Source: Candidatus Falkowbacteria bacterium (GTDB taxonomy: Bacteria > Patescibacteriota > Patescibacteriia > UBA11705). Taken from it: a DNA stretch of 64,000 nt. The position numbers and the translations under genes are program-made. The stretch spans positions 55,225-119,224 of the forward strand of contig DOZJ01000002.1 of NCBI GenBank assembly GCA_003518055.1, read 5' to 3'. Shown piece by piece: positions 1,379-58,131 of this stretch (position 1 is its first letter; each line of letters begins with the position of its first letter). The notes beneath the pieces were generated by a model that ran no database searches, was not told where the DNA came from, and worked only from the letters and a program-made list of their open reading frames with translations.

Positions 1379-1520
1379 TATCAAGTCATAAAACAAAATT
1401 AGAAGGTATTTACTTAAAATAATTTGTAATTAGTCGAAATTAGGCTGTCTACCGATAAATTTCTCGCCGAAGGACGAGTCAGTCCTATGGCTGACAACAA
1501 ATTTCCCAACTTCTATTAAT

Positions 1521-1603
1521 TTCATTTCTCTAAACCCGCTACCCGCTACCCGCTACACGCTAAAAGCTAAAAGCTATAAGCTATAAGTAAAACGCTATTC
1601 GCT
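1521..1603. repeat. Short tandem repeats abutting a start codon: 3x 'cccgctac', then 'aagctaaa' and 'aagctata' units, ending ...cgctATG
   Basis: Direct reading of the sequence. 7-8 bp periodicity. No Shine-Dalgarno. Confidence 0.8.
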
Positions 1604-2593
1604 ATGTCAAAAGTCGCCGTCAATTTAGTCACGTGGAACGGAGCCAACTACATCAAGGGTTGTCTGGATTCTTTGTTTAATCAGACCTTCACGGACTTCT
1701 CTTTGATGATTATTGACAACGGCTCAACCGACGAAACTCTGGAATTGATCAATGAAAAGTATCCGCATTTAAAAATAGTTAAACACCGAAATAATCTTGG
1801 TTTTGCCAAGGCGCATAATCAGGCGATTCACTGGACCGACAGCGAGTATGTTTTGCTGCTGAATCAGGATATTCTGCTTGAGCCGGATTTTATTGCCAAG
1901 CTGGTGGCGTTCGCCGACACGCGGCCAGACTCTGGCGCCTTTACCGGCAAAATTCTCAAACTGCAAGACGGCCAAAAAACCAAATATATTGATTCCCTTG
2001 GTTTACGTTTGTTCAAAAATCACCGGGTGATTGATCTCGGCGCCGGCGAAATGGACGACAGTCAGTATGACGCAGTCGAAGAAGTTTTCGGCGTTTCCGG
2101 CGCGATTCCATTGTATCGCCGAGCTGCCTTGACGGCGGTTGAGATGGATAAACAGTTTTTTGATGAAGATTTTTTCAGCTACAAGGAAGATGTGGACTTG
2201 GCCTATCGGCTGCGTTCCGCCGGCTGGAAAGCGTTCAAAGTGCCGCCGGCCGTCGCTTATCATGACCGCTCAGTTGCTTTGCCGCAAAAAGATATGTCCA
2301 AACTTGAGCTGGCCAAAGCGCGGCGTCACCGATCAAAGTTTGCCAATTATTATTCCTATCGCAACCATTGGTATTTCCTGATCAAAAATTTACCTGATCT
2401 GAAACCCAAGCATTTATTGCCGGTTTTATGGTTTGAATTTATCAAATTTTTTTACATTTTATTTTTTGAGACCGCGAATTTGAAAATTATAAAAGAGGTT
2501 TGGGCCGAGCGTCATCGATTCCAAGCCAAACGCCGCCTTATCAAGGCCAAACAAAAAGCAAGGACTGAAGATATTGATTCATGGCTGACATAG
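1604..2593 (+). CDS. Glycosyltransferase family 2 (WcaA/rhamnosyltransferase-like)
   Basis: N-terminal 'VTWNGANYIKGCLDSL...IIDNGSTDET' plus DxD-type GT-A signatures. Confidence 0.75.
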   Translation: MSKVAVNLVTWNGANYIKGCLDSLFNQTFTDFSLMIIDNGSTDETLELINEKYPHLKIVKHRNNLGFAKAHNQAIHWTDSEYVLLLNQDILLEPDFIAKLVAFADTRPDSGAFTGKILKLQDGQKTKYIDSLGLRLFKNHRVIDLGAGEMDDSQYDAVEEVFGVSGAIPLYRRAALTAVEMDKQFFDEDFFSYKEDVDLAYRLRSAGWKAFKVPPAVAYHDRSVALPQKDMSKLELAKARRHRSKFANYYSYRNHWYFLIKNLPDLKPKHLLPVLWFEFIKFFYILFFETANLKIIKEVWAERHRFQAKRRLIKAKQKARTEDIDSWLT

Positions 2594-5753: not shown

Positions 5754-7757
5754 ATGGTATGGTTGATCCTGGCCGTTCTGTTCATCATTTTGGCTGCCTG
5801 CGGTAAGCCGATTTCCAAGCTGTTTTATCGTGAAAACTATCGAGAGGATGTGATGATTAGCGGACGGCGCAAGGTATTTCTTGGCGTCACAATCGCTTCA
5901 AGCTTTATCGCTCTCTTTCTCATCATGGCTACCAGTTATGTGTTTATCGATCAGGATAAGGTTGGTCATCTCAAGCGTATTTACGGCGCCAATATGCCCG
6001 CCGGCCGAGTCATCGCCGTTGATGGCGAAAAGGGCCCCCAGGCTGAGATCCTGCCTCCCGGTTTTCACTTCCGACTGTTCATCAATGTTCTCTATGAAGT
6101 GGAGGAGAAGGATATCGTCTCCGTTTCCAATGATCATTACCGCATTCTCACCGCCTTTGACGGTCGAACGCTGCCTGAAGGTCAGTATCTGGCTGATGAA
6201 TGGCCTGATGGTATGACTGAAAGTTTCCTCAATGCTGAATATTTTATGAGTCCTGTGGCGGAGGGTGGCGAACCACGTGGTCAGAAGGGTCCTCAGCTGT
6301 CGGTTCTAAAGCCTGGCCAGTATCGTCTCAATCGGTATCTGTTTGATGTTAGTGACGAAGTTCAGGCAACCGAGATCGAAGCTGGATCAGTCGGTGTGAT
6401 CAAGAGCAATGTTGGTACGGTTTATACGGACAAGGCGATCGTGCCGAAGTCCATCATCGAGTCCTATCTCGAGGCTTCTCGTCTGGAAATTTCGCTTCGT
6501 CGGACTGCTCTTGAGCAGGAACTCAAGACGCTTGAATCTCTACCTCCGGTAATCGATACCGTAGCGACTCTCGCTACTCCAGAAGCCGCTCCCGAATCCG
6601 GTGATCAGGCTTCTGATGTTGTGCCGGAGGTAGGTGTCACCGCCATTGCTGCCGTCGCTCCGTCTGCTCCGATTTTCCGGACTCAGGAAGTCATTCAGAA
6701 GGATCTGGATAGTCTACGAGAGCTGACTGAAGATGAGGCCTATTCCCGGGCTCTGACCAATCTGTCAAATCCGCTGGTTCCAAAAGGAAACATCGGTGTC
6801 TGGCAGGAGGTTTTGCTTCCCGGCCGCTATTATCTGAATAAGCTGGCATACCATGTAACTATGGTTGATACTCGAGTCCAGACTTGGACTTATGAAGGCG
6901 GGTATACCAGGCGGTATTTTGATCTGACTGTGAATCCTGACGGATCAATCACTCAGAAGGAACGGGAAGATGACGTTCTTCAGCCAGATGGTGCTGCCGA
7001 TTCGGCCATCGTTCATAAGGTTGAGGGCTGGGACGTCTGGCTCGACAGCCGCATTCTGGTTCAGGTCACTCCGGATAATGCACCTTTCGTAGTCGCTTCA
7101 GTTGGAAATCTGGAAGAAGTCGAGAATCGGATCATCACCCCGATGTATCGATCTGTTTCCAGAAACATCCTCGGCAATCGTAAGAATCGCGTACTTGACG
7201 TGATTTATGATCGTCAGACTCAGGAGGCACAGGTTGAGGCGGGTATCAAGCCTGAAGGTTTGAAGTCAGGGCTCATCATCCGAGATGTTCGCTTCGGTGA
7301 TCCATATGTGCCGCCCGAGCTCCTGATCCCTGGCAAGCGTCAGCAGTTGGCTATGCAGCTTCAGACCACGTTCGATCAGGAGAAGGTCGCCCAGGAGACC
7401 CGAATCCAAGCTGAGAAAAAGAAGGCTGAGGCCGAACAGCAGGCCATTCTCATGAAGGCCGAGATCGAAAAGCAGGCGGCCGAGCGCCAGAAGGAACGCG
7501 ATCGTTTGCTCGGTGAAGGTGAACAGCTTCGTCTCGAGGCCGTGGCCAAGGGGCAGAAGGCCCAGGAGGATGTTCTCGGTCCGAAGCTGACATTCGAGCT
7601 GTCCGTAATTCGCGAGATGCTCGCTGCCGCCAAGGAGCATCCCGAGTTGGTCAAGGTTCCCCACATCTTGGTTACCGGTGAGGGTGGCGGTCTATCAGGC
7701 GCGGCCGCTATTCTTGGTGAAAGCACCCTTACTCGGGCCCTCACGCCGAGCAAGTAA
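5754..7757 (+). CDS. SPFH/band-7 flotillin-like protein with lipoprotein-type signal (LAAC lipobox)
   Basis: C-terminal EA-rich coiled coil 'QAEKKKAEAEQQAILMKAEIEKQAAERQKE' typical of flotillin/YqiK, preceded by an SPFH-like region. N-terminal signal with a Cys. GC-richer than flanks, with codons such as CTG/GCC/GGC. Confidence 0.5.
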   Translation: MVWLILAVLFIILAACGKPISKLFYRENYREDVMISGRRKVFLGVTIASSFIALFLIMATSYVFIDQDKVGHLKRIYGANMPAGRVIAVDGEKGPQAEILPPGFHFRLFINVLYEVEEKDIVSVSNDHYRILTAFDGRTLPEGQYLADEWPDGMTESFLNAEYFMSPVAEGGEPRGQKGPQLSVLKPGQYRLNRYLFDVSDEVQATEIEAGSVGVIKSNVGTVYTDKAIVPKSIIESYLEASRLEISLRRTALEQELKTLESLPPVIDTVATLATPEAAPESGDQASDVVPEVGVTAIAAVAPSAPIFRTQEVIQKDLDSLRELTEDEAYSRALTNLSNPLVPKGNIGVWQEVLLPGRYYLNKLAYHVTMVDTRVQTWTYEGGYTRRYFDLTVNPDGSITQKEREDDVLQPDGAADSAIVHKVEGWDVWLDSRILVQVTPDNAPFVVASVGNLEEVENRIITPMYRSVSRNILGNRKNRVLDVIYDRQTQEAQVEAGIKPEGLKSGLIIRDVRFGDPYVPPELLIPGKRQQLAMQLQTTFDQEKVAQETRIQAEKKKAEAEQQAILMKAEIEKQAAERQKERDRLLGEGEQLRLEAVAKGQKAQEDVLGPKLTFELSVIREMLAAAKEHPELVKVPHILVTGEGGGLSGAAAILGESTLTRALTPSK

Positions 7758-7794: not shown

Positions 7795-8102
7795 TATAAA
7801 AAATCCCATTTGTTCAGTTGCTCAAAATTTGGTAAACTAGGGGACGCGGGTGACATGAGGCGAGTGCCGCACACTTACCTCGATGTTACTGTCACCAAAT
7901 CCTTTTACCCTCACTATTCCCTTATTACACATTACTTCTCACTTATACTGTTTCCTCTTTACCACCCTCATCACCGTAATTTATTTATTTACCATCTCCC
8001 AATTCGTCCAAAATTTTTGTAGAAAGACTTTATCTAAACGACCCTTCATCTTGAAATTGTTTTTGTAAAAGCCAAACCTCCCAATTTCTTTCCAGAATAA
8101 TA

Positions 8103-8144
8103 TCTAATCTCGAATCTCCAATCTCTTAATCTCTTAATCTCTTC
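8103..8144. repeat. Tandem 7-8 bp repeat (t)aatctc(t), about 5 units, directly upstream of dnaE, ending ...tctccccctATG
   Basis: Direct reading. The same unit recurs at 57619-57668. Confidence 0.8.
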
Positions 8145-8156
8145 TTTTCTCCCCCT

Positions 8157-11100
8157 ATGTCTCAATTCGTCCATCTCCACGTCCACAGCCATTATTCTCT
8201 ACTTGACGGCTTGGCCAAAATCGATGACTTGGTTGGCAAGGCGGCCGCTGACGGCATGCCGGCTTTGGCTTTGACCGATCATGGTGTGATGTATGGCTCG
8301 ATTGAGTTTTACCAAAAATGCCGCAAAGCCGGTATCAAGCCGATTATCGGCGTCGAAGCCTATATCGCTAAATTCGGCCACTTGGTCAAAGACAGTTCTC
8401 GAGAAAAGCGGTTTCACGTGATTTTGCTGGCCAAAAACAACACCGGTTACAAAAATTTAATCAAATTAACCACAATCGCGCATTTGGTGGGTTTTTATTA
8501 TAAACCACGGATCGATTGGGACTTATTAAAAGAATATCATGAGGGTATAATCTGTGCGTCCGCTTGCCAGCAGGGGGAGTTAGCCAACGCTATCCTGAAT
8601 GAAAATTTAGACGCGGCTGAAGAGGTGGCTCGCAAATATTTGGCATTGTTCGGCGAGGGTAATTATTATCTGGAAGTGCAGCATCATCCCAACCTGCCCA
8701 AACAAAAAATCGTCAATGACGGCGTCTTTAAAATCGGAAAAAAATTAAATATCCCGATCATCGCCACCAACGACGTTCACTATTTGAATACCGAAGACGC
8801 CGAAGCCCACGATATCTTGATCTGTCTGCAAACCAAAAAAAAGGTTCATGATGAAAATCGCATGAGTTACTTGGGCGAAGATTTCTCCTTGTATTCCACG
8901 GCTCAGATGCAGGGATTTTTTCGCGCCAATCCCGAAGTTTTGGATAATACGGTCAAATTAGCCGAGCAATGCGATGTTGACATCACACTCGGCCAGATTC
9001 AATTACCGTCATATGATTTACCGGCAGGGCAGACGGCGTTTATGGCGCTTACCGCCGCCTGTCAGACTGGCATAACTGAGCGCTTTCAGTTTGATCCTGC
9101 CCAGCAGGATACCGATCGCCAAAAACAAATTATTGAGCGGTTGAATTATGAGCTCGGGATTATTGAAAAAACCGGCTATGCTTCCTACTTTTTGATTGTT
9201 ATGGATTTCATTGTCTGGGCGAAAAAGAACGGCATTGTCGTTGGTCCGGGCCGTGGTTCAGCCGCCGGCAGCTTGGTGGCTTATTTAACCAAAATCACCA
9301 ACATTGATCCGCTGCAATATGATTTATTGTTCGAGCGCTTTTTGAATCCCGACCGCGTATCCATGCCCGATATTGATACTGATTTTGCCGATATCCGCCG
9401 CTCCGATGTGATTCGTTACGTGGAAGAAAAATATGGCAAGGACAATGTGTCGCAGATTATTACTTTTGGCACCATGGCCGCTCGCGTGGCCATTCGGGAT
9501 GTTGGTCGGGTTCTGGATGTGCCGTATTCTTTTTGCGACAAGGTGGCCAAACAAGTCCCCATGGGTATGAGCATTGATGACTCAATCAATCAAAACAAGG
9601 AAATGAAGAGTTTGTACGAGAGCAACAGCGACGCCAAACGATTGTTGGATTTTGCCCGGAAGCTTGAGGGCGTTTGCCGCCACACATCGACCCACGCCTG
9701 CGGCATTTTGATTACTCCAAAACCACTCACCGAGTATACGCCGGTCCAATATTCGGCGACGAGCGATGAAGACACGGTTTCTCAGTATTCTTTGCATCCG
9801 GTCGAAGATTTGGGGCTGCTCAAAATGGACTTCCTCGGGTTAAAAAACTTGACCATCATGCAGCACGCCACCGAAATTATCGAAAAAATCCACGGTCTGA
9901 AATTAGATCTGGACGCCCTGCCTCTCGATGATGAGAAAACATTTAAACTGTTCCAACAGGGCAAAACCACCGGCGTTTTTCAATTTGAATCTCAAGGCAT
10001 GAAAAAATATTTGAAAATGTTGAAACCGACGCAGTTCGAAGATTTGATCGCTATGGTGGCCCTGTATCGTCCCGGACCACTCAATTCCGGCATGGTTGAT
10101 GAATTCATTGATCGTAAACACGGGCGCAAACAAATTTCTTATCCGCACGAAATTATGCGCGAACCACTCAAAAATACTTATGGCGTCATTGTTTACCAGG
10201 AGCAGGTCATGCAACTATCCAAGGATATGGCCGGGTTTACCGGTGGCCAAGCCGATACTTTGCGCAAGGCCATGGGCAAAAAAATTGCCGATTTGATGGC
10301 CAAAATGAAATTGGAATTTATTACCGGCTGCGAAAAAAATAAACTACCCAAAAGATTGGCGGAAGAAACTTTCGCCAGCATGGAAAAATTCGCTGAATAC
10401 GGATTCAACAAATCGCACGCAGCCTGCTACGCTTTGATTGCCTACCAAACCGCGTATCTCAAAGCCAATTATCCAGCTGAATTTATGGCCTCGCTTTTGA
10501 CGAGCGACCAGGAAAATATGGATCGGGTGGCGATTGAGATCGATGAATGCAAACAGATGAAAATCAAAGTGCTCCCGCCTGATGTCAATGAAAGTTTTAC
10601 CACCTTCACGGTCGTGGCCGAGTCTCTGGCTGCCGGAAATCCAACCATCAGATTTGGGTTGCAGGCGATTCGCAATGTCGGTCATGGCGTGGTTAAGGCG
10701 ATCATTCGAGAGCGCAAGGACCATGGCCGGTTCGCTGATTTTTCCGCTTTCTTGCAGCGGGTCAAAAGCAAGGATTTGAACAAAAAATCATTGGATGGAT
10801 TGGCCAAGAGCGGCGCTCTTGATAATTTCATTGGCCGCAGTCTGGTCCTGGAAAATATGGACAAGATTTTGTTGTATATCAAGGCGGTGGATGAAGAACA
10901 GAATACCAACCAGACCAATCTGTTTGCTCTTGGCGGCGGTCAGTCATTGCCGTCCTTGAATTTGATCGAATACCCCGAGGCCGCCAAAAAACAACGTTTA
11001 TCATGGGAAAAAGAATTCCTCGGTCTTTACGTTACCGAACATCCTTTCTCCGAGTTTGAAGACCGCCTCAAAGACATCATTGTTCCACTGCATAAAATCA

Positions 11101-11648
11101 AAGAAACCGACCCCGAAGAACAAGAGGAGCGGGCTACGGTTGTGACTGCGGGCGTTATCGGCAGCCTGACTAAAATTATTACCGCCAAGGGCGACCCCAT
11201 GTTATTCGTCCGGCTGGAAGACGCGTTTGTCGGGGTTGAACTGTTGATTTTCCCCAAACTATATGAGGAAATTGGCGACAAGATTCAAGAAGAAAAAATT
11301 ATGATGGTAACCGGCCAGTTGAGCTACAAAGACGCCGAACCAAAGATCTTGGTCAATAATTTATGGGAAATCAATCAAGACAATCTGGATTCGGTTGTCC
11401 AATCGGTACGGGTGTATGAACCGCCGCGATTCAACAAAAAAAATATTATTATCAAATATCCCAAAGGCAGTACGCACGAACTGGCTGATCGCATCAAGCA
11501 TCTCTTCCGATCGTTTCCCGGGACGAACACCATTTTTCTCCATGTGGACGCGCAAATCATCAAAACCAACTTCAAAGTCAAATACTGTCCTAATTTTGAG
11601 CAAAAAGTTCAGGAATTGCTGGGCAAAGACGCGATCAAGATCAAATAA
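8157..11648 (+). CDS. dnaE: DNA polymerase III alpha subunit
   Basis: N-terminal PHP domain 'HLHVHSHYSLLDG...ALTDHG'. 1163 aa. Conserved polymerase core. Confidence 0.95.
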   Translation: MSQFVHLHVHSHYSLLDGLAKIDDLVGKAAADGMPALALTDHGVMYGSIEFYQKCRKAGIKPIIGVEAYIAKFGHLVKDSSREKRFHVILLAKNNTGYKNLIKLTTIAHLVGFYYKPRIDWDLLKEYHEGIICASACQQGELANAILNENLDAAEEVARKYLALFGEGNYYLEVQHHPNLPKQKIVNDGVFKIGKKLNIPIIATNDVHYLNTEDAEAHDILICLQTKKKVHDENRMSYLGEDFSLYSTAQMQGFFRANPEVLDNTVKLAEQCDVDITLGQIQLPSYDLPAGQTAFMALTAACQTGITERFQFDPAQQDTDRQKQIIERLNYELGIIEKTGYASYFLIVMDFIVWAKKNGIVVGPGRGSAAGSLVAYLTKITNIDPLQYDLLFERFLNPDRVSMPDIDTDFADIRRSDVIRYVEEKYGKDNVSQIITFGTMAARVAIRDVGRVLDVPYSFCDKVAKQVPMGMSIDDSINQNKEMKSLYESNSDAKRLLDFARKLEGVCRHTSTHACGILITPKPLTEYTPVQYSATSDEDTVSQYSLHPVEDLGLLKMDFLGLKNLTIMQHATEIIEKIHGLKLDLDALPLDDEKTFKLFQQGKTTGVFQFESQGMKKYLKMLKPTQFEDLIAMVALYRPGPLNSGMVDEFIDRKHGRKQISYPHEIMREPLKNTYGVIVYQEQVMQLSKDMAGFTGGQADTLRKAMGKKIADLMAKMKLEFITGCEKNKLPKRLAEETFASMEKFAEYGFNKSHAACYALIAYQTAYLKANYPAEFMASLLTSDQENMDRVAIEIDECKQMKIKVLPPDVNESFTTFTVVAESLAAGNPTIRFGLQAIRNVGHGVVKAIIRERKDHGRFADFSAFLQRVKSKDLNKKSLDGLAKSGALDNFIGRSLVLENMDKILLYIKAVDEEQNTNQTNLFALGGGQSLPSLNLIEYPEAAKKQRLSWEKEFLGLYVTEHPFSEFEDRLKDIIVPLHKIKETDPEEQEERATVVTAGVIGSLTKIITAKGDPMLFVRLEDAFVGVELLIFPKLYEEIGDKIQEEKIMMVTGQLSYKDAEPKILVNNLWEINQDNLDSVVQSVRVYEPPRFNKKNIIIKYPKGSTHELADRIKHLFRSFPGTNTIFLHVDAQIIKTNFKVKYCPNFEQKVQELLGKDAIKIK

Positions 11649-13547: not shown

Positions 13548-13924
13548 TGAATCGGTTTGACGTTATGCGTTGTTTTATCTATAATTAACTTGCTCGCTGG
13601 TGATTGGGTCAGCTACCATCTGGCCGTCCTTTAATAGGACTTAAATCAGCCAAGAATTTAACTAAGCGGCGAGAACAATCAAAGAAATTAAGAGCTCCAA
13701 TTATTGTCATAATGTCTTGAACTTTTAAGGGATCAAGGAATCAATGGTGAACAATAGCGGAGAACGTGGGTGGAAACGCCGTCAATTCGATGGTCCCAAG
13801 GTTTATAGCCTTGTTTTTTATTTATATTATTACTAATGACGAATATACTACGAATATACTAAAACAAACTTAGGCGGTTGCTAAATTCGTAGATAAGTAG
13901 TCGATTTGTAATTGGTAACAAATT

Positions 13925-15017: not shown

Positions 15018-15099
15018 AATTGGTTGTTGATGATTTGTTTTATGGGTGAAATTCAATGTTTAGATTATCATCACATCAAATTTATGGGCTTGATTAAAT

Positions 15100-15730
15100 A
15101 GATAATCCCCACTTTAGTGGAAGGGTTTTATGAGATATCAGTTCTTTTCCAACACAACATATTTTGTTACCTACAAAACATGTAATAATGGATCGTATTA
15201 TTTTTCTGATGAGGAAAAAGATATTATCTTATCGAAATTGCTAGAAGCCCGGTCAAAATTCATACCCGGATTAAAAGCGTTTGCCATTCTTTCCAACCAT
15301 TATCATCTATTAATTGAAAATGTTGATAGTCGGGCCGCCCAAAAGTTTTTCCAACTATTAAATGGTGGTAGCTCGTTCATTATTAATAAGGATAAAAATA
15401 GTAAATTTAATTATTGGGGGATTCAGGACCGAATCAATTGGCCGGTTAAGACTGAGGGAAAGTTTTTTCAATTTTTAGCGTATGTGGTGGCCAATCCGTG
15501 GCGTCATGGTTTGGTGCGGGAAATAAGTGATTTAAAAGGTTATCGGTATTGTAATTATGACCAAGTTTGCGAAGACTATGGAGAGGCGTTTATACAAGAT
15601 TTAATTTTAAATCGTATTAAGAAAGATGATGAATGAGGTGTTTTCCCCACTAAGGTGGGGCATATTTAATTCATGTAATATAAAAAGAAATAAAATTCCT
15701 TATGTCCCACTTTAGTGGGAGGGTCTATAA
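15100..15730 (+). mobile_element. IS200/IS605-like or REP-RAYT element: Y1 transposase flanked by palindromic hairpins
   Basis: Near-identical hairpin copies 'cccactttagtgg(a/g)agggt' at 15106-15129 and 15704-15727, plus 'ccccactaaggtgggg' at 15645-15660, bracket the 168-aa HuH gene. Confidence 0.6.
15130..15636 (+). CDS. IS200/RAYT-like HuH tyrosine (Y1) transposase
   Basis: HuH motif 'NHYHLLIE'. 'NYWGIQDRI' and C-terminal 'NPWRHGLV' match the COG1943/RayT signature (NPvkaGLV). About 165 aa, typical size. Confidence 0.7.
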   Translation: MRYQFFSNTTYFVTYKTCNNGSYYFSDEEKDIILSKLLEARSKFIPGLKAFAILSNHYHLLIENVDSRAAQKFFQLLNGGSSFIINKDKNSKFNYWGIQDRINWPVKTEGKFFQFLAYVVANPWRHGLVREISDLKGYRYCNYDQVCEDYGEAFIQDLILNRIKKDDE

Positions 15731-15764: not shown

Positions 15765-17525
15765 ATGAACGAAGATCAATTAAAAAAAATGCGTCACTCT
15801 CTCGCCCACGTAATGGCTCAAGCGGTTTTGAAGTTTTTTCCTGACGCCAAATTAGCGATCGGTCCTGACATTGATACCGGTTTTTATTATGATTTTGACT
15901 TGGGTGGCCAGTCATTCTCACCGGAAGATTTGAAAAAAATCGAGAAACAAATGAAAAAAATCATCGCCGGTAATCAGAAATTCGAAGCTTATTCCTTACC
16001 GCTGTCCGAAGCCAAAGAAAAAATGCAGGGCAACCCCTACAAGGTTGAGTTAATCGATGAACTTGGGGGTGCGGGGGAGACGGTTATTAATTTTTACAAA
16101 AATATCGACGGCAACGGCCAAACCATGTTTAATGATATGTGCCGCGGGCCTCATGTCGAGTCCACCAAAGCGGTCGGCGCCTTCAAAATTGACAAGGTCG
16201 CTGGCGCCTATTGGCGGGGAGATGAAAAAAAACCGATGCTTCAGCGGATTTACGCGTTGGCTTTTGGCACCCAAGCGGAATTGGAACATTTTCTAACCAT
16301 GAGGGCTGAGGCTGAACGCCGCGATCACCGAAAACTGGCCAAAGAGTTGGGCTTGATTGTCCATTCCGAATTGGTCGGACCGGGCCTGCCGCTTTACACG
16401 GGCAAAGGCGCGTTGCTTCGACGACTGATCGGCGATTATTCGCGTGAACTTCGAGACCGTATGGGTTATGTCGAAGTTCATACGCCGCAAATGAACAAGG
16501 CCGAACTCTTTAAACGCTCCGGCCATTATGACAAATACAAAGATGATATGTTCCGCGTGGTGTCCAATTATACCGATGAAGAATATTATCTTAAACCCAT
16601 GAATTGTCCTCAGCACACGCAGATTTTTGCCGCGGATATCCGCAGCTACAAAGACTTACCGGTTCGCATCGCTGATTTCGCCAATCTCTATCGAGATGAA
16701 AAACCCGGAGAGTTGAGCGGTCTGACTCGTCTACGGTGTTTTGCTCAGGACGACGGCCATTGTTTTTGCCGCGAGGATCAGATTGAGCAGGAATTCAGCC
16801 AGCTGCTCGAAGCGGAAAAGGAAACCCTCGCGACTTATGGGATGGACTATCATGTTCGGTTGTCATTCTCTGATAAAAATAATATGAAAGCCTATCTCGG
16901 TGACGAAGCGGTGTGGTCCAAGGCGGAGATCATGCTCGAAGCTTTGGTTAAAGAAAAAAATGTCCCTTACGTTATAGCCGAAGGCGAAGCCGCTTTTTAT
17001 GGCCCCAAAATGGACATCATTGCCAAGGATTCGCTCGGCCGCGAGTGGCAATTGTCGACGATTCAAATCGATTTTAATCTGCCTGAGCGGTTTGAACTGG
17101 AATACATCGGCCAAGACGGCAAAAAACACCGTCCGGTGATGATTCATAGTGCTCTAGTCGGTTCGCTGGAACGTTTTATGGCCGTCGTGATTGAGCATTA
17201 TGCCGGGGACTTTCCTTTGTGGCTCTCACCGGTTCAGGTCAAGCTGATTTCCGTCGGTGAAAAACATCACGACTATGTGGTTAATTTGGCTGCTAAATTA
17301 AAACAGGAAAAAATTCGAGTGGAGATTGATTTGAGCGATGAAACCGTTGGCAACAAAATTAGAAAATCAGAAAAAGAAAAGAATCCTTACATGTTGGTCA
17401 TTGGTGACAAAGAAATGGAATCGACCAAATACACCATTCGTCAGCGTAATGAATCTGACCAACGCGAACTCAGTCTGGACGAGTTGGTCACGGAAATTGT
17501 CCAGAAAGTGGCTGCCAAAAAATAG
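15765..17525 (+). CDS. thrS: Threonyl-tRNA synthetase (short form lacking N-terminal TGS domain)
   Basis: 586 aa. 'HSLAHVMAQAV' editing-domain start, class II core and anticodon-binding domain collinear with ThrRS. Confidence 0.9.
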   Translation: MNEDQLKKMRHSLAHVMAQAVLKFFPDAKLAIGPDIDTGFYYDFDLGGQSFSPEDLKKIEKQMKKIIAGNQKFEAYSLPLSEAKEKMQGNPYKVELIDELGGAGETVINFYKNIDGNGQTMFNDMCRGPHVESTKAVGAFKIDKVAGAYWRGDEKKPMLQRIYALAFGTQAELEHFLTMRAEAERRDHRKLAKELGLIVHSELVGPGLPLYTGKGALLRRLIGDYSRELRDRMGYVEVHTPQMNKAELFKRSGHYDKYKDDMFRVVSNYTDEEYYLKPMNCPQHTQIFAADIRSYKDLPVRIADFANLYRDEKPGELSGLTRLRCFAQDDGHCFCREDQIEQEFSQLLEAEKETLATYGMDYHVRLSFSDKNNMKAYLGDEAVWSKAEIMLEALVKEKNVPYVIAEGEAAFYGPKMDIIAKDSLGREWQLSTIQIDFNLPERFELEYIGQDGKKHRPVMIHSALVGSLERFMAVVIEHYAGDFPLWLSPVQVKLISVGEKHHDYVVNLAAKLKQEKIRVEIDLSDETVGNKIRKSEKEKNPYMLVIGDKEMESTKYTIRQRNESDQRELSLDELVTEIVQKVAAKK

Positions 17526-21080: not shown

Positions 21081-21137
21081 ACTCCCAGCCGTAATTGACG
21101 AATTACGTCATTATTGCGTAAGATATAGTAAGTAATT

Positions 21138-21176
21138 CCCTAAACCCTAAAAGCTAAACGCTAACCCCTAAACCCT
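21138..21176. repeat. Telomere-like heptamer repeats CCCTAAA / (a/c)GCTAAA abutting the rfbC start (...ccctATG)
   Basis: Direct reading of 'ccctaaaccctaaaagctaaacgctaacccctaaaccct'. Confidence 0.8.
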
Positions 21177-21632
21177 ATGATCTCCGGAGTTCAAATCAAA
21201 CCCATCAAACGCTTCTGCGATGACCGCGGTTATTTTTGCGAAGTTATTAAGTTCGGTGAAGACACTTATCACGAAGTCAAACAAACCAGCTATACCGAGA
21301 CGCATCCCGGCGTGATCAAAGCTTTCCATTGGCACAAAAAACAATGGGATGTCTGGTTCGTGGTTCGGGGTATGGCTCAGGTTGTGCTTCATGATATGCG
21401 CGATGACTCGCCAACCAAAGGCGAAACTCAAGTCATTTGCGCCGGCGAAGATAACCCGGTCTTGATTGCCATCCCGCCATTTGTGGCCCATGGTTATCGG
21501 GTTCTGGGAAACGAGAAGGTTTGTTTGTTTTATCACACGAGCGAAGCCTATGATCCGGCCAACCCGGATGAAGAGCGGATCGAATTTGACGACCCGAAAA
21601 TCGGCTTTGACTGGACCACCAAAAATCGTTAG
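21177..21632 (+). CDS. rfbC: dTDP-4-dehydrorhamnose 3,5-epimerase (short cupin form)
   Basis: 'DDRGYFCEV' and 'AFHWHKKQ' correspond to RmlC 'DERGFF' and 'GLHFQ' motifs. Confidence 0.7.
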   Translation: MISGVQIKPIKRFCDDRGYFCEVIKFGEDTYHEVKQTSYTETHPGVIKAFHWHKKQWDVWFVVRGMAQVVLHDMRDDSPTKGETQVICAGEDNPVLIAIPPFVAHGYRVLGNEKVCLFYHTSEAYDPANPDEERIEFDDPKIGFDWTTKNR

Positions 21633-21727: not shown

Positions 21728-22309
21728 ATGCTCGAAAAAATCAAACAACACATGGAAAATTTTTTCGATCCGTTTTGCCGCCTTTTTTTCCCGGTGATCC
21801 CAATGTGGGTCACGCCGAATCGCTTGACCATAAGCAGATTAATCGGTGTGCCTTTTCTGATATATTTTTTATGGCAGGGCTGGTATGTTGGTTCGCTGGT
21901 TTTATTTATCCTTTTAGCCTTGACCGACATGTTCGACGGCGCTCTGGCTCGCGGCCGCAATATGATTACCGAGTTTGGCACTTTGCTTGACCCGCTCGCC
22001 GACAAAATTTTAATTGCCTCAGCCAGTTTGATTCTATTGATCAAGGTAAACCTGACTTTGGCTATTCTGGTCGTCGGACTGGATGTCATTGTCATCGTTT
22101 TGGGCGCGGTCGGAAAACTCATCGGCCACAAATTGACCTTGAAGGCTAATATTTGGGGCAAAACCAAATTAACCCTGCAGGTTCTAGGTATCGGTTTGGT
22201 ATTTTTGGGTTTTATTTTCAACTTCGTGTGGCTTCATAACGTGGCCGAATATTTTCTCTGGGCCGCTATCGGCTTTGCCATCATCAGTATTGTCAAAAAC
22301 GGGGCGTGA
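21728..22309 (+). CDS. CDP-alcohol phosphatidyltransferase family protein (PgsA-like)
   Basis: Signature 'D..DG.LAR......G..LD...D' present: 'DMFDGALARGRNMITEFGTLLDPLADK'. Multi-TM. Confidence 0.75.
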   Translation: MLEKIKQHMENFFDPFCRLFFPVIPMWVTPNRLTISRLIGVPFLIYFLWQGWYVGSLVLFILLALTDMFDGALARGRNMITEFGTLLDPLADKILIASASLILLIKVNLTLAILVVGLDVIVIVLGAVGKLIGHKLTLKANIWGKTKLTLQVLGIGLVFLGFIFNFVWLHNVAEYFLWAAIGFAIISIVKNGA

Positions 22310-22749: not shown

Positions 22750-22809
22750 CGAGCGCCCACTGCCGTTTTATATATTACACATTACATATTACACAAATAA
22801 TTCACCAAT

Positions 22810-23874: not shown

Positions 23875-24110
23875 CGTGTCATGCTGAGCCCCGTCGAAGC
23901 ATAGACACGCGAAGGTGATTATTGAAACAAAAAACCAGGCTTCGAGAGCCTCAGCCTGACAAGACTGATAATCCAACATCCCAAAGGAATTTCAAGCATC
24001 AAAATAATTCGTGTCATGCTGAGCCCCGTCGAAGCATAGACACGCGAAGGTGATTATTGAAATAAAAAGCCAGGATTCGAGAGCTTCAATCTGACAAAAT
24101 AAGTAATCCT
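23875..24110. repeat. Two tandem copies (about 136-bp period) of a unit containing a conserved hairpin 'cgtgtcatgct-gagccccgtcga-agcatagacacg'
   Basis: The first 53 nt of each copy are identical (23875-23927 vs 24010-24062). The rest is about 85% similar. Confidence 0.7.
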
Positions 24111-24207
24111 ACATCCTCAACCCTACAACTTACTTCTTTCATTGACTTTTTATCAAATTTACCATAAGTTAAACATTACGGAGGGTTAATCTTCTAACGA
24201 TCGAATT

Positions 24208-38241: not shown

Positions 38242-38709
38242 TTATTCGCGAACCACGTAAGTTTTCGCGATCATGTCATGCAGGCCTTGTTTTTTCTTGG
38301 TCCAGAAAATTATCAAAAAGCCAATGCCGAGGGTGATACCGCAGACAATGCCACCAACAATTTGTCTCAGCAGGACGACCGCCCACCAATTCATCTTGTT
38401 CTCATTTGCTTCTTTGATTAATTTCAATTTCAAAGCCATCATGCCCAGTGTTTGCTGCTTCAAAGCCAAGAAACAAATCACATAAACCAATCCGATCAAG
38501 CCGCCAAGATTGTTGGTCGCGTTTTCTGACATGAATGAACCGAGGATTCCGATCACAATCCCTAGAATTATCGCATCGATAATGTAGGCCAGAAATCGAA
38601 TCCAGCCACCGGCATAATGCGGTCCGCCGAGCGCCGGTTTTGACATGTCCGGTTGAGCAGCCATTGGCGTTGCCGCCGGCATCGACCCTTGAGATCTTTG
38701 TTCGTCCAT
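38242..38709 (-). CDS. RDD family membrane protein
   Basis: 'WIRFLAYIIDAII' and C-terminal 'QGLHDMIAKTYVV' typical of RDD domains. Confidence 0.7.
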   Translation of the reverse strand: MDEQRSQGSMPAATPMAAQPDMSKPALGGPHYAGGWIRFLAYIIDAIILGIVIGILGSFMSENATNNLGGLIGLVYVICFLALKQQTLGMMALKLKLIKEANENKMNWWAVVLLRQIVGGIVCGITLGIGFLIIFWTKKKQGLHDMIAKTYVVRE

Positions 38710-39063
38710 AAGAAGTTTGATTATGATTTATTCTTACTCGTCTATTATAGCAAAAAACAATCAAACAATCCAATAATTAAAAAACCACGTGGTGACGTGA
38801 TTTATTGTTCCTTTAACAGTTGTTTAGTTTCTTCCAAGGTTTTTCTAAACGCCTTGAACAAGAACCATTTCCCGGTGAAAAAGGCCTTCCATTTGAGCCG
38901 CCGCAGGCGGCTGATTTCAGCTTCCAGATATTGTTTATATTCGTGAGCCGTCCAGAGTCCTTCGGCTTTCCTTTCCGTTTCCATTGATCATCTCTTTCCG
39001 GCTGCTGCCAGATTTTTCTTTTGTAAATGGGTGAGGTTTTACCCTGATATTAATTGTTAATTA

Positions 39064-56456: not shown

Positions 56457-57416
56457 ATGAAAAAAATTATTTTAATTATAATTCTGATATTGCTGCCAAC
56501 CACCGTACTGGCCGCGTTTGATATTGATTTTACCTCTCAAGCTCCGGTCGGGGATTGGCGTCAACCGTGGCAGGATGCATGTGAAGAAACTTCGGTGGTG
56601 ATGGTGGATGCTTTTTATGGCGGTTATGACCTGACGGTTGATAAATCTGTGACCAAAATCAAAACTGTTTTTGCCATCAAAGAAAAATTTTTTGGTCCGA
56701 GTTATGATGAAACTGCCGGCCTTATCGTTGATATGATCAACCGGCATTTTCCTTGGGAATCGCGAGTGGTCGAAAACCCAACGCTTGATCAGATAAAGTT
56801 TGAGCTGGATGCCAGCCGTCCGGTTTTGGTGCCGGTTCATGGCGGTACGCTTAATAATCCCAATTATCATTCCGGCTCAATCGATTATCACATGATTGTG
56901 CTGATCGGTTATGACGACGCTCGCGGTGAATTTATGGCGCATGATCCGGGCACGCAATTCGGTTCTCGTCATCATTACAGTTACGATACCATTATGGCCG
57001 CCATGCATGATTTTTTGCCTAACGACCAGACATTAAGAGGCGCCAAAGTGGCGATTTTCACACAGCCTGACATTTCTCTCTCCGGTCAAACCGATGGCGA
57101 CAGGGACGGATTATTGAAAATTGACGAAATTAGATCAGGCGCCAACCTGTCACAAGCTGATACTGATCGAGATGGTTTTCTTGACGGCGAAGAAGTTCAG
57201 CAGGGGTATTCTCCGTTGGTGGCCGAGTTCAAACTGGGGGATAACCGATTGGTGCGCGACGCGGCGACTCAGCGGATCTATTTTATTTCCGGCAGCCAGA
57301 AAAGACATATTCAAACCCTCCCGACGGTATTCAGTTATGGCCGCCTTTATGGCGCGGTTGTTAATGTCAGCGCTAAATTCTTGAACAGTTTTGTTGACGG
57401 GCAGCCGATCCATTAG
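56457..57416 (+). CDS. Secreted papain-fold (C39-like) cysteine peptidase domain protein with Ca-binding D-x-D-x-D-G repeats
   Basis: Signal peptide. 'QPWQDACEETS' Cys context and a downstream His are C39_2-like. 'TDGDRDGLL' and 'TDRDGFLDGEE' repeats. Confidence 0.45.
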   Translation: MKKIILIIILILLPTTVLAAFDIDFTSQAPVGDWRQPWQDACEETSVVMVDAFYGGYDLTVDKSVTKIKTVFAIKEKFFGPSYDETAGLIVDMINRHFPWESRVVENPTLDQIKFELDASRPVLVPVHGGTLNNPNYHSGSIDYHMIVLIGYDDARGEFMAHDPGTQFGSRHHYSYDTIMAAMHDFLPNDQTLRGAKVAIFTQPDISLSGQTDGDRDGLLKIDEIRSGANLSQADTDRDGFLDGEEVQQGYSPLVAEFKLGDNRLVRDAATQRIYFISGSQKRHIQTLPTVFSYGRLYGAVVNVSAKFLNSFVDGQPIH

Positions 57417-57420
57417 CTTT

Positions 57421-57616
57421 CCCGCACTGAAGTACAGGAAAAATGATTCTGGCCGGTTTGGATCTTTTCCCGCACTAAAGTACGGGAAAAGAAGGATGGG
57501 AAAAATGGTTTAGGCCGGTTTGAATCCTTTCCCCGCACTAAAGTACGGGAAAAGAATGGTGGGAAAAATGATTTTAGCCGGTTTAGATATTTCCCCGCAC
57601 TTCAGTGCGGGAAGCG
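57421..57616. repeat. Tandem array (about 3.5 units of about 62 bp), each unit starting with a GC-stem hairpin ccc(c)gcac-t(a/t)(a/c)ag-t(a/g)cggg
   Basis: Units at 57421, 57468, 57531 and 57594. First and last hairpins carry reverse-complementary loops (ctgaag vs cttcag). Spacer parts are also repeated, so this is not a CRISPR. Confidence 0.75.
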
Positions 57617-57618
57617 GG

Positions 57619-57668
57619 CTCAATCTCTCAATCTTTCAATCTCTTAATCTCTTAATCTCTTAATCTCT
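57619..57668. repeat. Tandem 8-mer (c/t)aatctct x about 6, ending ...tctctcccaccccATG
   Basis: Same unit as the one upstream of dnaE. Confidence 0.8.
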
Positions 57669-57678
57669 CTCCCACCCC

Positions 57679-58128
57679 ATGTGCGCCGGTATTTCATTTC
57701 ATATTGATAAAATCAATCCTGAGGAACTGGATCGGTTTTTCCTGCCGGCAGAATACGATAGCCACCGCCGCGGCGACCGAGTTGAGGTTTTTTACTGGGA
57801 CCGTGATCCGTTTCTGCCGATTGAAGAAGACGATGGTGTTCATCTTTATCCTTGGGGCAACCGGGAAAAAGATTTGAAGCTGCCCAAAACCGGTTGGGCC
57901 AAGATTGAATCCATTCAAGATGGCCGCTGGGATTATCTGGCGCCGAAACTGGTCAAAATCCCCAGCCTGTCAGGCTATGAAAAAAAACACTGGTTTGGCA
58001 CGCCGGCCGGCATCAGAGGTATTAAGGTTCGCTTTCACAACCTGACTCGCGTTTATTTAGTCACCCAAAAAGCCGATCAAGAATTTTTCAGTAAAATCGG
58101 GCATGATCGGATGCCAATTCAATTTTAA
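57679..58128 (+). CDS. Hypothetical 149-aa protein with N-terminal Met-Cys
   Basis: Stop is 3 nt before the giant ORF start. Confidence 0.5.
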   Translation: MCAGISFHIDKINPEELDRFFLPAEYDSHRRGDRVEVFYWDRDPFLPIEEDDGVHLYPWGNREKDLKLPKTGWAKIESIQDGRWDYLAPKLVKIPSLSGYEKKHWFGTPAGIRGIKVRFHNLTRVYLVTQKADQEFFSKIGHDRMPIQF

Positions 58129-58131
58129 TTT

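What the first reader, a model, noticed from the sequence alone, without database searches (positions are those of the whole stretch)
1521..1603. Short tandem-repeat leaders running straight into start codons (also at 8103-8144, 21138-21176, 57619-57668)
Four genes are preceded by 7-8-bp tandem repeats that end directly at the ATG with a ...c(c)ctATG or ...ccccATG context and no SD. The genes are the GT2 at 1604, dnaE, rfbC and the 57679 ORF. The repeats are cccgctac / agctaaa, taatctct (shared by two loci 49 kb apart) and the telomere-like ccctaaa. Such repeats could be slipped-strand phase-variation switches. They could also be CU/CA-rich S1-dependent translation enhancers that replace the SD in this organism.
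Basis: seen in the sequence. Interest (0 to 1): 0.55.

Follow-up and report, generated by a model that had tools for sequence, protein, structure and literature searches.

The report
Repeat-built gene leaders in a Falkowbacterium
Several genes of this uncultivated groundwater bacterium (Candidatus Falkowbacteria) are preceded by short 7-8-base tandem repeats that run right up to the gene start; these are real, stable, species-specific stretches of untranslated leader rather than on/off switches, and they resemble repeats described earlier in other bacteria whose function is still unknown.

Summary
All four arrays exist at the stated coordinates and end 0-13 nt before verified start codons of GT2, dnaE, an rfbC-like gene and a conserved 149-aa ORF. 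None has a Shine-Dalgarno (SD) site. They are far beyond chance: 5 arrays against 0-0.03 in shuffles.

- **Families:** the four collapse into two. Family A is heptamers of the form AnnnGCT (nnCTAAA), at GT2 and rfbC. Family B is AATCTCTY plus a pyrimidine tail, at dnaE and ORF149.
- **Organism:** a CPR bacterium (Candidatus Falkowbacteria) that rarely uses SD (7 of 54 genes) and has G-poor leaders.
- **Same-genome flanks:** 17 kb more holds a third family-B array before a ferredoxin gene. It also holds arrays ending 3-6 nt before two tRNA genes, so the arrays are not translation-specific.
- **Relatives:** 7-8-nt arrays are pervasive between genes. Eleven of 22 end within 15 nt of a start (3.2 expected). 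Units differ, and arrays are absent at orthologous genes that are 80-89% identical.
- **Stability:** 5-8 independent assemblies per locus show no copy-number change, and perfect runs never exceed 3 units. Phase variation is unsupported.

Best reading: slippage-born expansions of 5' leaders, tolerated because they stay G-poor, free of start codons and unstructured. The closest precedent is the TAACTGA repeats of Beggiatoaceae. Moderate interest.

The parts
1534..1603 (+). Family-A array: 10 in-phase heptamers of the form AnnnGCT (ACCCGCT x3, ACACGCT, AAAAGCT x2, ATAAGCT x2, ATAAGTA, AAACGCT, ATTCGCT). It runs directly into the ATG of the GT2 gene at 1604.
   Evidence: The fold is less structured than 199 of 200 shuffles.
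1491..1519 (+). Putative GT2 promoter, CTGACA-17 nt-TATTAA. It lies 14 nt upstream of the array, which would make the array the 5' UTR.
   Evidence: Read from the sequence. It is below the threshold of the consensus scan, so this is an inference.
1604..2593 (+). Family 2 glycosyltransferase gene, first gene of a GT2-GT2 pair.
   Evidence: Pfam PF00535, E = 3.6e-24. The start is conserved in L015.
7810..7838 (+). dnaE promoter-like block TTGTTC-17 nt-TAAACT (with TG), conserved with relative L015. It lies about 318 nt upstream of the ATG here, against about 40 nt in L015.
   Evidence: Alignment; sequence.
8098..8143 (+). Family-B array: AATATCT, AATCTCG, AATCTCC, then AATCTCTT x3.
8144..8156 (+). 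Pyrimidine tail CTTTTCTCCCCCT between the array and the dnaE ATG at 8157.
   Evidence: The minimum free energy of 8098-8190 is 0 kcal/mol.
8157..11648 (+). dnaE (DNA polymerase III alpha).
   Evidence: Pfam PHP, DNA_pol3_alpha, finger and HHH_6 domains.
21095..21124 (+). Consensus-like sigma-70 promoter TTGACG-18 nt-TAAGAT, ending 13 nt before the array.
21138..21176 (+). Family-A array: CCCTAAA, CCCTAAA, AGCTAAA, CGCTAAC, CCCTAAA, then CCCT+ATG. It is 88% identical over 24 nt to part of the GT2 array.
21177..21632 (+). rfbC-like dTDP-sugar epimerase family gene (151 aa).
57437..57613 (+). 63-nt tandem repeat (2.8 copies), each copy with a CCCGCAC...GTRCGGG hairpin, immediately upstream of the family-B array. 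It is absent from the 67-nt orthologous spacer in L171.
57619..57669 (+). Family-B array: AATCTCTC, AATCTTTC, AATCTCTT x3, AATCTCTC.
57670..57678 (+). Pyrimidine tail TCCCACCCC before the ATG at 57679.
57679..58128 (+). Conserved 149-aa ORF (N-terminus MCAG...), first gene of a pair with the 1522-aa ORF at 58132.
22768..22795 (+). Additional G-free array (ATTACAC x3), ending 14 nt before the HIT-family gene at 22810.
38755..38781 (-). GATTGTTT x3.4 array overlapping the -35 region of the TGCTATAAT promoter of the RDD gene (38242-38709, - strand). This one is promoter-proximal rather than in a leader.

Best explanation
The arrays are short tandem duplications that have lengthened the 5' leaders of the first genes of transcription units. 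The organism is a Candidatus Falkowbacteria (CPR) genome that mostly does not use Shine-Dalgarno pairing.

**Origin (inferred).** Replication slippage or tandem duplication with a lineage-wide preference for 7-nt (and 8-nt) units. [quoted passage not shown]

**Persistence (inferred).** Only arrays that obey the local rules for leaders survive next to a start codon. Those rules are: G-poor, no upstream ATG/GTG/TTG, no secondary structure, and a pyrimidine or 'CT' directly before the ATG.

**What they do.** They act as passive, unstructured spacers that permit SD-independent initiation at the first AUG. Before tRNA genes they are disposable 5' leaders. They are not on/off switches.

**Shown:** the anatomy, the positional bias, the lack of SD, the lack of predicted structure, the lack of conservation at orthologous sites, and stability across assemblies.

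**Inferred:** that the arrays are transcribed, that they arose by slippage, and that they are functionally passive.
For: - **Real and non-random.** 5 arrays against 0-0.025 in shuffles. In 323 kb of Falkowbacteria-like loci, 22 of 23 arrays are intergenic although 87% of the sequence is coding. Eleven of those 22 end within 15 nt of a start, against 3.2 +/- 1.4 expected (p < 5e-5).
- **Leader position.** The rfbC array begins 13 nt after a TTGACG-18-TAAGAT promoter. The ferredoxin array lies 58 nt after a TATAAT. The conserved dnaE promoter lies upstream of its array.
- **Leader rules.** SD is found in only 7 of 54 genes, against a 7.7% background. G is 6-17% at positions -25 to -1, against 24.6% in coding sequence, and T is 65% at -1. 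Thirteen of 55 genes have at least 8 of 10 pyrimidines before the ATG.
- **Structure.** The arrays have 0-14% G. Predicted folds range from 0 to -10.8 kcal/mol with z-scores from -0.1 to +2.1.
- **Lineage-specific expansion.** Spacers carrying arrays are longer than their orthologues: 225 against 56 nt (GT2), 262 against 67 nt (ORF149), 399 against 144 nt (dnaE). Orthologues at 80-89% identity lack the arrays or carry unrelated ones. L015 keeps a single CCCGCT where the window has ACCCGCT x3.
- **Not translation-specific.** Arrays end 6 nt and 3 nt before tRNA-Thr and tRNA-Leu in the same genome.
- **Period preference.** Recurrence of 5-mers in intergenic DNA peaks at lags 7, 8, 14 and 21, both in the window and in relatives. 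This fits the reported over-representation of heptameric repeats in bacteria and the polymerase-slippage idea relayed in PMC4692102.
- **Stability.** All other assemblies are identical.
Against: - **Shared unit families.** Pure local slippage predicts a different unit at every locus. Instead, in 81 kb of this genome family B occurs at 3 gene starts and family A at 3 gene 5' ends. All are in the same orientation and have the same architecture.
- **A conserved core.** Within family A, the CTA core is kept in 19 of 20 units while the other four positions vary.
- **Another genome does the same.** Relative L022 has its own family (RTCAGTTG + AAAnnT + ATG) at three starts.
- **No direct evidence of transcription.** No start sites have been mapped.
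- **Orientation is confounded.** About 90% of genes in the region are on the + strand, so orientation relative to genes cannot be separated from orientation relative to replication.
- **The stability test is weak.** All the assemblies are one clone and are consensus sequences.
Confidence: 0.5

Rival explanations
1. The arrays are sequence-specific binding sites. Each genome has one or a few repeat families recognised by an RNA- or DNA-binding protein, for example a cold-shock-domain or S1-type OB-fold protein that binds about one heptamer per domain. Such a protein would recruit ribosomes or regulate a set of transcripts, as MacGregor proposed for the TAACTGA repeats.
For: - The same unit family is found at several loci with identical orientation and architecture.
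- L022 has its own family at three starts.
- The CTA core is invariant in 19 of 20 family-A units (sequence).
- TTTAGAA-type units occur both in this genome and in L017.
- The precedent and candidate binding proteins are set out in PMC4679880.
Against: - Arrays are not conserved at orthologous genes that are 80-89% identical.
- Units differ between related genomes.
- The downstream genes share no function: glycosyltransferase, epimerase, dnaE, ferredoxin, tRNA.
- The CTA-N4 core is not the top-ranked core in an unbiased count of all 64 trinucleotides.
- No binding protein has been identified.
Confidence: 0.22
2. The arrays are active CU/CA-rich translational enhancers that replace the SD sequence. 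The repeats would raise ribosome recruitment through S1 or through their lack of structure.
For: - SD is rare.
- The four leaders are G-poor, pyrimidine- and A-rich and unstructured.
- Pyrimidine tracts directly before the ATG are common in this genome.
Against: - The same family precedes a tRNA gene.
- Most SD-less genes have no array.
- Orthologues function without arrays.
- Relatives have G-rich arrays, or arrays folded into hairpins of -28 to -33 kcal/mol, right before starts.
Confidence: 0.15
3. The arrays are slipped-strand contingency loci. Copy-number changes would switch or tune expression, as with the hmw (ATCTTTC)n 5'-UTR repeat of Haemophilus influenzae.
For: - Two of the genes are envelope-polysaccharide genes (GT2 and rfbC).
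- The heptamer repeat in the 5' UTR of hmw genes is a proven tuning device (PMC12721329).
- One unit of the ORF149 array (AATCTTTC) contains the hmw unit.
Against: - No copy-number difference appears in any of 5-8 independent assemblies per locus.
- There are at most 3 identical consecutive units, against 11-63 perfect copies in hmw.
- There is no G-rich partner arm and no predicted hairpin.
- The arrays also precede dnaE and a ferredoxin gene, and lie before tRNA genes.
Confidence: 0.06

Closest known systems
TAACTGA heptamer direct repeats of marine Beggiatoaceae, also found in some Cyanobacteria and Bacteroidetes (MacGregor 2015, PMC4679880)
   Same: - Tandem 7-nt units in a few copies, almost all intergenic.
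- Forward orientation toward the gene, ending within a few nucleotides of the start codon (the largest class ends 1 nt upstream).
- They occupy the place of the SD site in a genome that uses SD little.
- The downstream genes share no function and include essential genes.
- The function has not been tested.
   Different: - The unit sequence differs. Here there are at least two families per genome, AnnnGCT and AATCTCTY, with 7- and 8-nt units.
- The phylum differs (CPR/Patescibacteria).
- Here arrays also abut tRNA genes.
- Only 81 kb of the genome could be examined, so genome-wide abundance is unknown.
Heptameric intergenic repeats: cyanobacterial STRR, the GGGAATC (Xanthomonas) and GGGGAYT (Nostoc) repeats of Rehm et al. 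2015 (PMC4692102), and the general excess of heptamer repeats attributed there to Mrazek et al. 2007
   Same: - The 7-nt period dominates.
- The repeats are intergenic.
- Length and presence vary between close species.
- Some copies occur as inverted pairs that can form hairpins.
- Polymerase slippage has been suggested as the origin.
   Different: - Those repeats are G-rich and can form G-quadruplexes.
- They are not specifically adjacent to start codons.
- The window's arrays are G-poor on the sense strand.
hmw1A/hmw2A (ATCTTTC)n 5'-UTR repeat of Haemophilus influenzae (PMC12721329)
   Same: - A pyrimidine-rich heptamer array lying between the promoter and the start codon.
- The unit resembles family B (AATCTTTC / AATCTCTT).
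   Different: - hmw has 11-63 perfect copies with proven copy-number variation.
- It has a G-rich right arm that forms a long hairpin cleaved by RNase III.
- It has an SD site downstream.
- None of these features is present here.

Membership tests
Start-proximal heptamer direct repeats (TAACTGA type, MacGregor 2015) | Direct tandem repeats of a 7-nt unit, 2-6 copies per set | tested here: met
   4-10 units of 7 or 8 nt.
Start-proximal heptamer direct repeats (TAACTGA type, MacGregor 2015) | The unit is TAACTGA | tested here: not met
   The units are AnnnGCT/nnCTAAA and AATCTCTY. Only relative L022 has a similar unit, CAACTGAC.
Start-proximal heptamer direct repeats (TAACTGA type, MacGregor 2015) | Intergenic, oriented toward the start codon and ending within a few nt of it | tested here: met
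   The gap to the ATG is 0-13 nt for all four arrays. Eleven of 22 arrays across the clade end within 15 nt, against 3.2 expected.
Start-proximal heptamer direct repeats (TAACTGA type, MacGregor 2015) | SD absent from the repeat-bearing spacer, in a genome that uses SD little | tested here: met
   None of the four leaders has an SD site; 7 of 54 genes in the window do.
Start-proximal heptamer direct repeats (TAACTGA type, MacGregor 2015) | The same unit recurs at many loci across the genome | tested here: inconclusive
   There are 3 loci for each family in the 81 kb available. The whole genome could not be reached.
Phase-variable contingency locus (slipped-strand mispairing) | A long tract of identical units | tested here: not met
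   The longest perfect run is 3 units; arrays show 81-95% matches.
Phase-variable contingency locus (slipped-strand mispairing) | Copy-number polymorphism between isolates or samples | tested here: not met
   Assemblies from about 12 runs are identical.
Phase-variable contingency locus (slipped-strand mispairing) | The tract lies in a reading frame or between -35 and -10, so that its length gates expression | tested here: not met
   The four arrays lie downstream of the recognisable -10 elements and outside ORFs. The promoter positions are predictions.
hmw-type 5'-UTR heptamer repeat with RNase III hairpin | A G-rich arm pairing with about 10 repeats to form a long hairpin | tested here: not met
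   Minimum free energy is 0 to -10.8 kcal/mol, no better than shuffles.
hmw-type 5'-UTR heptamer repeat with RNase III hairpin | At least 11 perfect copies, variable in number | tested here: not met
Heptameric intergenic repeats / STRR-like | A period of 7 over-represented among intergenic tandem repeats | tested here: met
   5-mer recurrence in intergenic DNA peaks at lags 7, 14 and 21 in the window and in relatives.
Heptameric intergenic repeats / STRR-like | Presence and length not conserved between related species | tested here: met
S1-dependent CU/CA-rich translational enhancer | An unstructured pyrimidine- or A-rich 5' UTR segment | tested here: met
S1-dependent CU/CA-rich translational enhancer | Binds S1 and raises translation | not testable with these tools
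   This needs biochemistry or reporter assays.
S1-dependent CU/CA-rich translational enhancer | Associated specifically with translated genes | tested here: not met
   A family-A array ends 6 nt before tRNA-Thr, and other arrays end 3 nt before tRNA-Leu.

The most novel reading that the evidence does not exclude
Falkowbacteria, and perhaps many CPR bacteria, may use genome-specific 7-8-nt 'leader repeat' families as recognition sites for an RNA-binding protein that binds one heptamer per domain (cold-shock-domain or S1-like). Such a system would stand in for SD/anti-SD pairing, or would co-regulate a set of primary transcripts that includes tRNA precursors. The nearly invariant CUA core of family A and the AAUCUC core of family B would be the contact points.
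Probability: 0.15. Interest if true: 0.7.

Novelty: new member of a known kind. Interest (0 to 1): 0.38.

Why it matters
CPR/Patescibacteria make up a large share of bacterial diversity, yet how their genes are started is almost unstudied. Two full-text searches found nothing on tandem repeats or SD use in this group.

This window shows a lineage with very little SD use and G-poor leaders. It also has a strong tendency to build the last stretch before a gene from 7-8-nt tandem repeats that form a few shared families.

If the repeats are passive, they are a clean natural example of how free leader length and sequence become once SD pairing is abandoned. They are also a caution for gene callers and for screens that look for phase variation. 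If they are recognised specifically, they would be a second, independent case, after the Beggiatoaceae TAACTGA repeats, of a repeat-based signal at gene starts. That would make the long-open question of what such heptamer arrays do testable in a small genome.

Tried and rejected
- **hmw-like hairpin or a G-rich partner arm.** Folding of all four leaders gives 0 to -10.8 kcal/mol, no better than shuffles. Rejected.
- **G-quadruplex on the complementary strand.** Only the rfbC array has four G-runs, and they include a 17-nt loop. The family-B complements lack GGG runs. Judged by reading the sequence only; not pursued.
- **Family-A units as tandem -10 promoter elements** (GCTATAAG and GCTAAAAG resemble the TGCTATAAT used elsewhere in the window). 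None of the units has the T at the last position of the hexamer, and the consensus scan found no promoter in the GT2 spacer. Kept only as a remote possibility.
- **A clade-wide CTA-N4 superfamily.** Several arrays that abut a start share the core (window, L015, L020, L164). In an unbiased count of all 64 trinucleotide cores, CTA is not top-ranked. Kept as a lead only.
- **Orientation bias of AATCTCTY arrays in metagenomes.** 14 of 64 arrays have an ATG-started ORF within 45 nt in the sense direction, against 4 of 64 in the antisense direction. The effect is modest. The contigs span 29-67% GC and many carry inverted pairs, so this unit is widespread rather than specific to this genome.
- **Closely related strains for a copy-number comparison.** None exists in the protein collection between 90% and 100% identity. 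All exact-protein hits are the same clone.
- **Complementarity of the repeats to 16S rRNA.** Not testable.
- **Stop codons in all three frames as a termination-reinitiation pad.** TAA is present in most units of this window. It is absent from the units of the start-abutting arrays in L015 and L020, so the feature is not general.

Full report
**1. What is there**

The four regions were read directly and scanned with Tandem Repeats Finder.

- **GT2 leader.** Read in phase, this is a single run of ten heptamers of the form AnnnGCT over 1534-1603: ACCCGCT x3, ACACGCT, AAAAGCT x2, ATAAGCT x2, ATAAGTA, AAACGCT, ATTCGCT. The ATG at 1604 takes the place of the next unit.
- **rfbC leader (21138-21176).** CCCTAAA, CCCTAAA, AGCTAAA, CGCTAAC, CCCTAAA, then CCCT-ATG. 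It too runs straight into the start codon.
- **dnaE leader.** AATATCT, AATCTCG, AATCTCC, AATCTCTT x3 (8098-8143), then the pyrimidine tail CTTTTCTCCCCCT and the ATG at 8157.
- **Leader of the 149-aa ORF.** AATCTCTC, AATCTTTC, AATCTCTT x3, AATCTCTC (57619-57669), then TCCCACCCC and the ATG at 57679.

Pfam confirms GT2, DNA polymerase III alpha and a dTDP-sugar epimerase-like protein. The 149-aa ORF has no Pfam domain but has about 50 full-length homologues in Falkowbacteria and Parcubacteria. The start codons are supported by conserved N-termini in orthologues.

The four arrays are not four independent things. The repeat finder shows that the dnaE and ORF149 leaders are 81% identical over 48 nt (family B). 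It also shows that the GT2 and rfbC arrays are 88% identical over 24 nt (family A).

ATTACAC x3 at 22768-22795 lies before a HIT-family gene. GATTGTTT x3.4 at 38755-38781 overlaps the promoter of an RDD gene on the - strand.

**2. Is it more than chance?**

Shuffling the 8.7 kb of intergenic DNA 200 times in two ways gives 0 and 0.025 arrays on average. Five are observed at the same threshold.

Recurrence of 5-mers in intergenic DNA peaks at lags 7, 8, 14 and 21. The peaks disappear when the listed arrays are masked.

**3. Organism and general context**

Exact-protein look-ups place the window on a 211-kb groundwater metagenome contig (PRJNA292723). NCBI names the protein as Candidatus Falkowbacteria. 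The dnaE relatives in the genome collection are Falkowbacteria and other Patescibacteria.

The window has one tRNA and no other Rfam match.

SD use is low. Seven of 54 genes have 4 or more consecutive bases of AGGAGGT at the right distance, against 7.7% at random positions. Upstream regions are G-depleted: 6-17% G at -25 to -1, against 24.6% in coding sequence. T occupies position -1 in 65% of genes. Thirteen of 55 genes have at least 8 of 10 pyrimidines directly before the ATG, typically TTTTCTCT-ATG. Canonical TTGACA-17-TATAAT promoters, often with a TG extension, are visible at many genes.

**4. Where the arrays sit in the transcription unit**

- **rfbC:** a consensus-like promoter (TTGACG-18-TAAGAT, 21095-21124) ends 13 nt before the array.
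- **GT2:** a weaker candidate (CTGACA-17-TATTAA, 1491-1519) ends 14 nt before the array. This was read from the sequence and is below the scan threshold.
- **dnaE:** a 45-nt block containing TTGTTC-17-TAAACT is conserved with relative L015. There it lies about 40 nt before the ATG; in the window it lies about 318 nt before it. The window's dnaE leader has therefore been lengthened by about 280 nt of G-poor sequence ending in the array.

All four genes are first in their transcription unit. The arrays are therefore most simply the 3' part of 5' untranslated leaders. This is an inference, because no transcription start data are available.

Predicted structure is nil. The dnaE leader has a minimum free energy of 0 kcal/mol, and the GT2 leader folds worse than 199 of 200 shuffles.

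**5. Test on the rest of the same genome**

Two look-ups gave 17 kb flanking the window. This held-out sequence contains the following.

- A third family-B array (AATCTCTT, AATGACTT, AATCTCTT x2, then TTCTCTCT-ATG) before a ferredoxin gene, 58 nt downstream of a TATAAT (L176 2528-2567).
- A family-A array (ACAACCT, ACAAGCT, TACAGCT, AAAAGCT x2) ending 6 nt before tRNA-Thr (L175 21755-21789; tRNA at 21796-21871).
- Inverted AAATTCT/TTTAGAA arrays ending 3 nt before tRNA-Leu (L176 2793-2898; tRNA at 2902-2989).
- C-rich 10-mers running up to the ATG of a glycosyltransferase gene.
- A 9-mer array overlapping a promoter.

In the 81 kb now available, tandem family-B units occur exactly three times and tandem family-A units exactly three times. 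All are on the + strand and directly 5' of a + strand gene.

The tRNA cases matter. They show that the arrays mark gene 5' ends in general, not translation starts specifically.

**6. Relatives**

In 323 kb of Falkowbacteria-like loci, 22 of 23 arrays (period 6-9, at least 2.9 copies) are intergenic although 87% of the DNA is coding. Eleven of those 22 end within 15 nt of a start codon. Placing each array at random within its own spacer gives 3.2 +/- 1.4 (p < 5e-5).

Heptamer arrays precede dnaE in L018 (GACTTTT) and L020 (CTACTTT x5, in phase with the ATG). One precedes the GT2 orthologue in L017 (TTTAGAA), and one precedes the DUF4012 gene in L015 (CTATTTA x4.4).

Arrays are not conserved at orthologous sites.
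- L015 (dnaE 85%, GT2 81% identical) has none at dnaE and only a degenerate one at GT2.
- The ORF149 orthologue (80%) has a plain 67-nt spacer.
- Of the rfbC orthologues, the 85% ones have none and the 89% one has unrelated inverted 8-mer arrays.

Spacers carrying arrays are expanded relative to their orthologues: 225 against 56 nt, 262 against 67 nt, and 399 against 144 nt. L015 has a single CCCGCT where the window has ACCCGCT x3, which suggests local amplification of an ancestral leader segment.

Some relatives break the G-poor rule. L022 has its own family (RTCAGTTG + AAAnnT + ATG) at three starts. These are paired with upstream complementary arrays that fold at -33 kcal/mol (z = -5.9). L164 has a -28 kcal/mol hairpin of inverted arrays followed by a U-run.

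**7. Copy-number stability**

Exact-protein look-ups returned 8 (rfbC), 6 (ORF149) and 5 or more (GT2) places from about a dozen sequencing runs and several assemblers. All are 100% identical to the window over their whole length, arrays included.

This is one clone, and these are consensus sequences, so the test is limited. Even so, highly mutable tracts usually differ or break assemblies. In addition, the arrays have at most three identical consecutive units. No strain between 90% and 100% protein identity exists in the collection.

**8. Comparison with what is known**

- **TAACTGA repeats (closest in anatomy).** MacGregor's TAACTGA heptamer repeats in Beggiatoaceae form 169 sets. Most are forward-oriented, and the largest class ends 1 nt before a start codon. 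They take the place of the SD site and precede unrelated and essential genes. S1, cold-shock or CsrA proteins were proposed as binders but not tested (PMC4679880).
- **Heptameric repeats in general.** They are reported as over-represented in many bacteria, with length variation between close species, occasional inverted pairs, and a polymerase-slippage explanation (PMC4692102).
- **The hmw repeat (the only experimentally dissected case).** The hmw (ATCTTTC)n repeat of H. influenzae needs 11-63 perfect copies, a G-rich partner arm and RNase III (PMC12721329). None of these is found here.
- **AATCTCTY arrays elsewhere.** A metagenome scan found at least 120 contigs of 29-67% GC. Many carry GAGATT/AATCTC hairpins, and there is a modest sense-orientation bias toward nearby ORFs (14 against 4 of 64). 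This unit is therefore not peculiar to this genome.
- **CPR literature.** Full-text searches found nothing on such repeats, or on SD use, in CPR/Patescibacteria.

**9. Interpretation**

*Best supported (about 0.5).* The arrays are slippage-born expansions of 5' leaders, with a lineage-wide preference for 7-8-nt units. Where SD pairing is not needed, leader length and sequence are free. The arrays that survive keep the leader G-poor, free of start codons and unstructured. They work as passive leaders for SD-independent initiation, and as disposable leaders before tRNAs.

*The main unexplained fact.* Unit families are shared between loci, with a fixed orientation and architecture and a nearly invariant core (CTA in 19 of 20 family-A units). 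This keeps a sequence-specific binding-site model alive (about 0.22).

*Weaker models.* An active translational-enhancer role (about 0.15) is weakened by the tRNA cases, by orthologues without arrays, and by the structured or G-rich arrays in relatives. Phase variation (about 0.06) is not supported.

**10. Verdict**

The enhancer idea is compatible with the data but not specifically supported.

The feature is a new member, in a new phylum and with new unit families, of the known but functionally unexplained class of heptamer arrays next to start codons. Interest is moderate.

Noticed in passing
window 57402-57613: A 63-nt tandem repeat (2.8-3 copies). Each copy carries a CCCGCAC-NNNN-GTRCGGG hairpin, and the repeat sits directly upstream of the family-B array. 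The orthologous spacer in L171 is only 67 nt and lacks it. A similar hairpin-then-array layout precedes the ferredoxin gene (L176 2500-2560).
   Followed up: partly
window 23875-23981 and 24010-24116: Two 107-nt direct copies (89% identical, 135-nt period) upstream of the epimerase gene at 24208. Each has a GTGTCATGCT...AGCATAGACAC hairpin. There is no Rfam match. A degenerate heptamer run (ATCCTAC, ATCCTCA, ACCCTAC, AACTTAC) follows at 24106-24133, just before a TTGACT-17-TAAGTT promoter.
   Followed up: no
window 5754-7757: A Band_7-family gene with higher GC (52% against about 45%) and a clear SD site (GGAAAGGAG). It is absent from the otherwise syntenic L015 locus, so it looks like a recent insertion between the DUF4012 gene and dnaE.
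   Followed up: partly
window 13839-13861; L015 about 17070-17120; L165 about 1270-1330 and 1960-2010: A (C)TACGAAT motif is repeated 2-4 times upstream of the D-Tyr-tRNA deacylase gene in both the window and L015. It also occurs in spacers of L165 and L017. It is a candidate conserved regulator-binding site, distinct from the leader arrays.
   Followed up: no
window about 15095-15125 and about 15705-15725: The same small hairpin, CCCACTTTAGTGGG, occurs upstream of two neighbouring genes (15130 and 15765, the latter thrS).
   Followed up: no
L176 2378-2452 (same genome, about 6 kb upstream of the window): An 18-nt tandem repeat (AAAACTTCGGAGGTCAAG x4.2) lies between a diacylglycerol-kinase gene and the ferredoxin promoter. 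Intergenic DNA of this genome carries tandem repeats of many periods: 7, 8, 9, 10, 18, 63 and 135 nt.
   Followed up: no
L039-L158 (metagenome contigs): AATCTCTY arrays occur in at least 120 metagenome contigs of 29-67% GC. About 40% have an inverted GAGATT array within 120 nt, giving long perfect hairpins, sometimes followed by a T-run. This looks like a widespread intergenic element resembling the cyanobacterial STRR repeats.
   Followed up: partly
L022 2646-2756, 13807-13833 and 20035-20136: A Patescibacteria relative has an 8-mer family, CAACTGAC / GTCAGTTG, that is close to the Beggiatoaceae TAACTGA unit. It is arranged as hairpin-forming inverted pairs ending 4-7 nt before three start codons.
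   Followed up: partly
window 57679-62700: The 149-aa ORF begins MCAG, an N-terminal Cys as in Ntn-type amidotransferases. It is followed after 3 nt by a 1522-aa ORF with no Pfam domain. In L171 the giant gene is absent and an EamA transporter gene follows instead.
   Followed up: no
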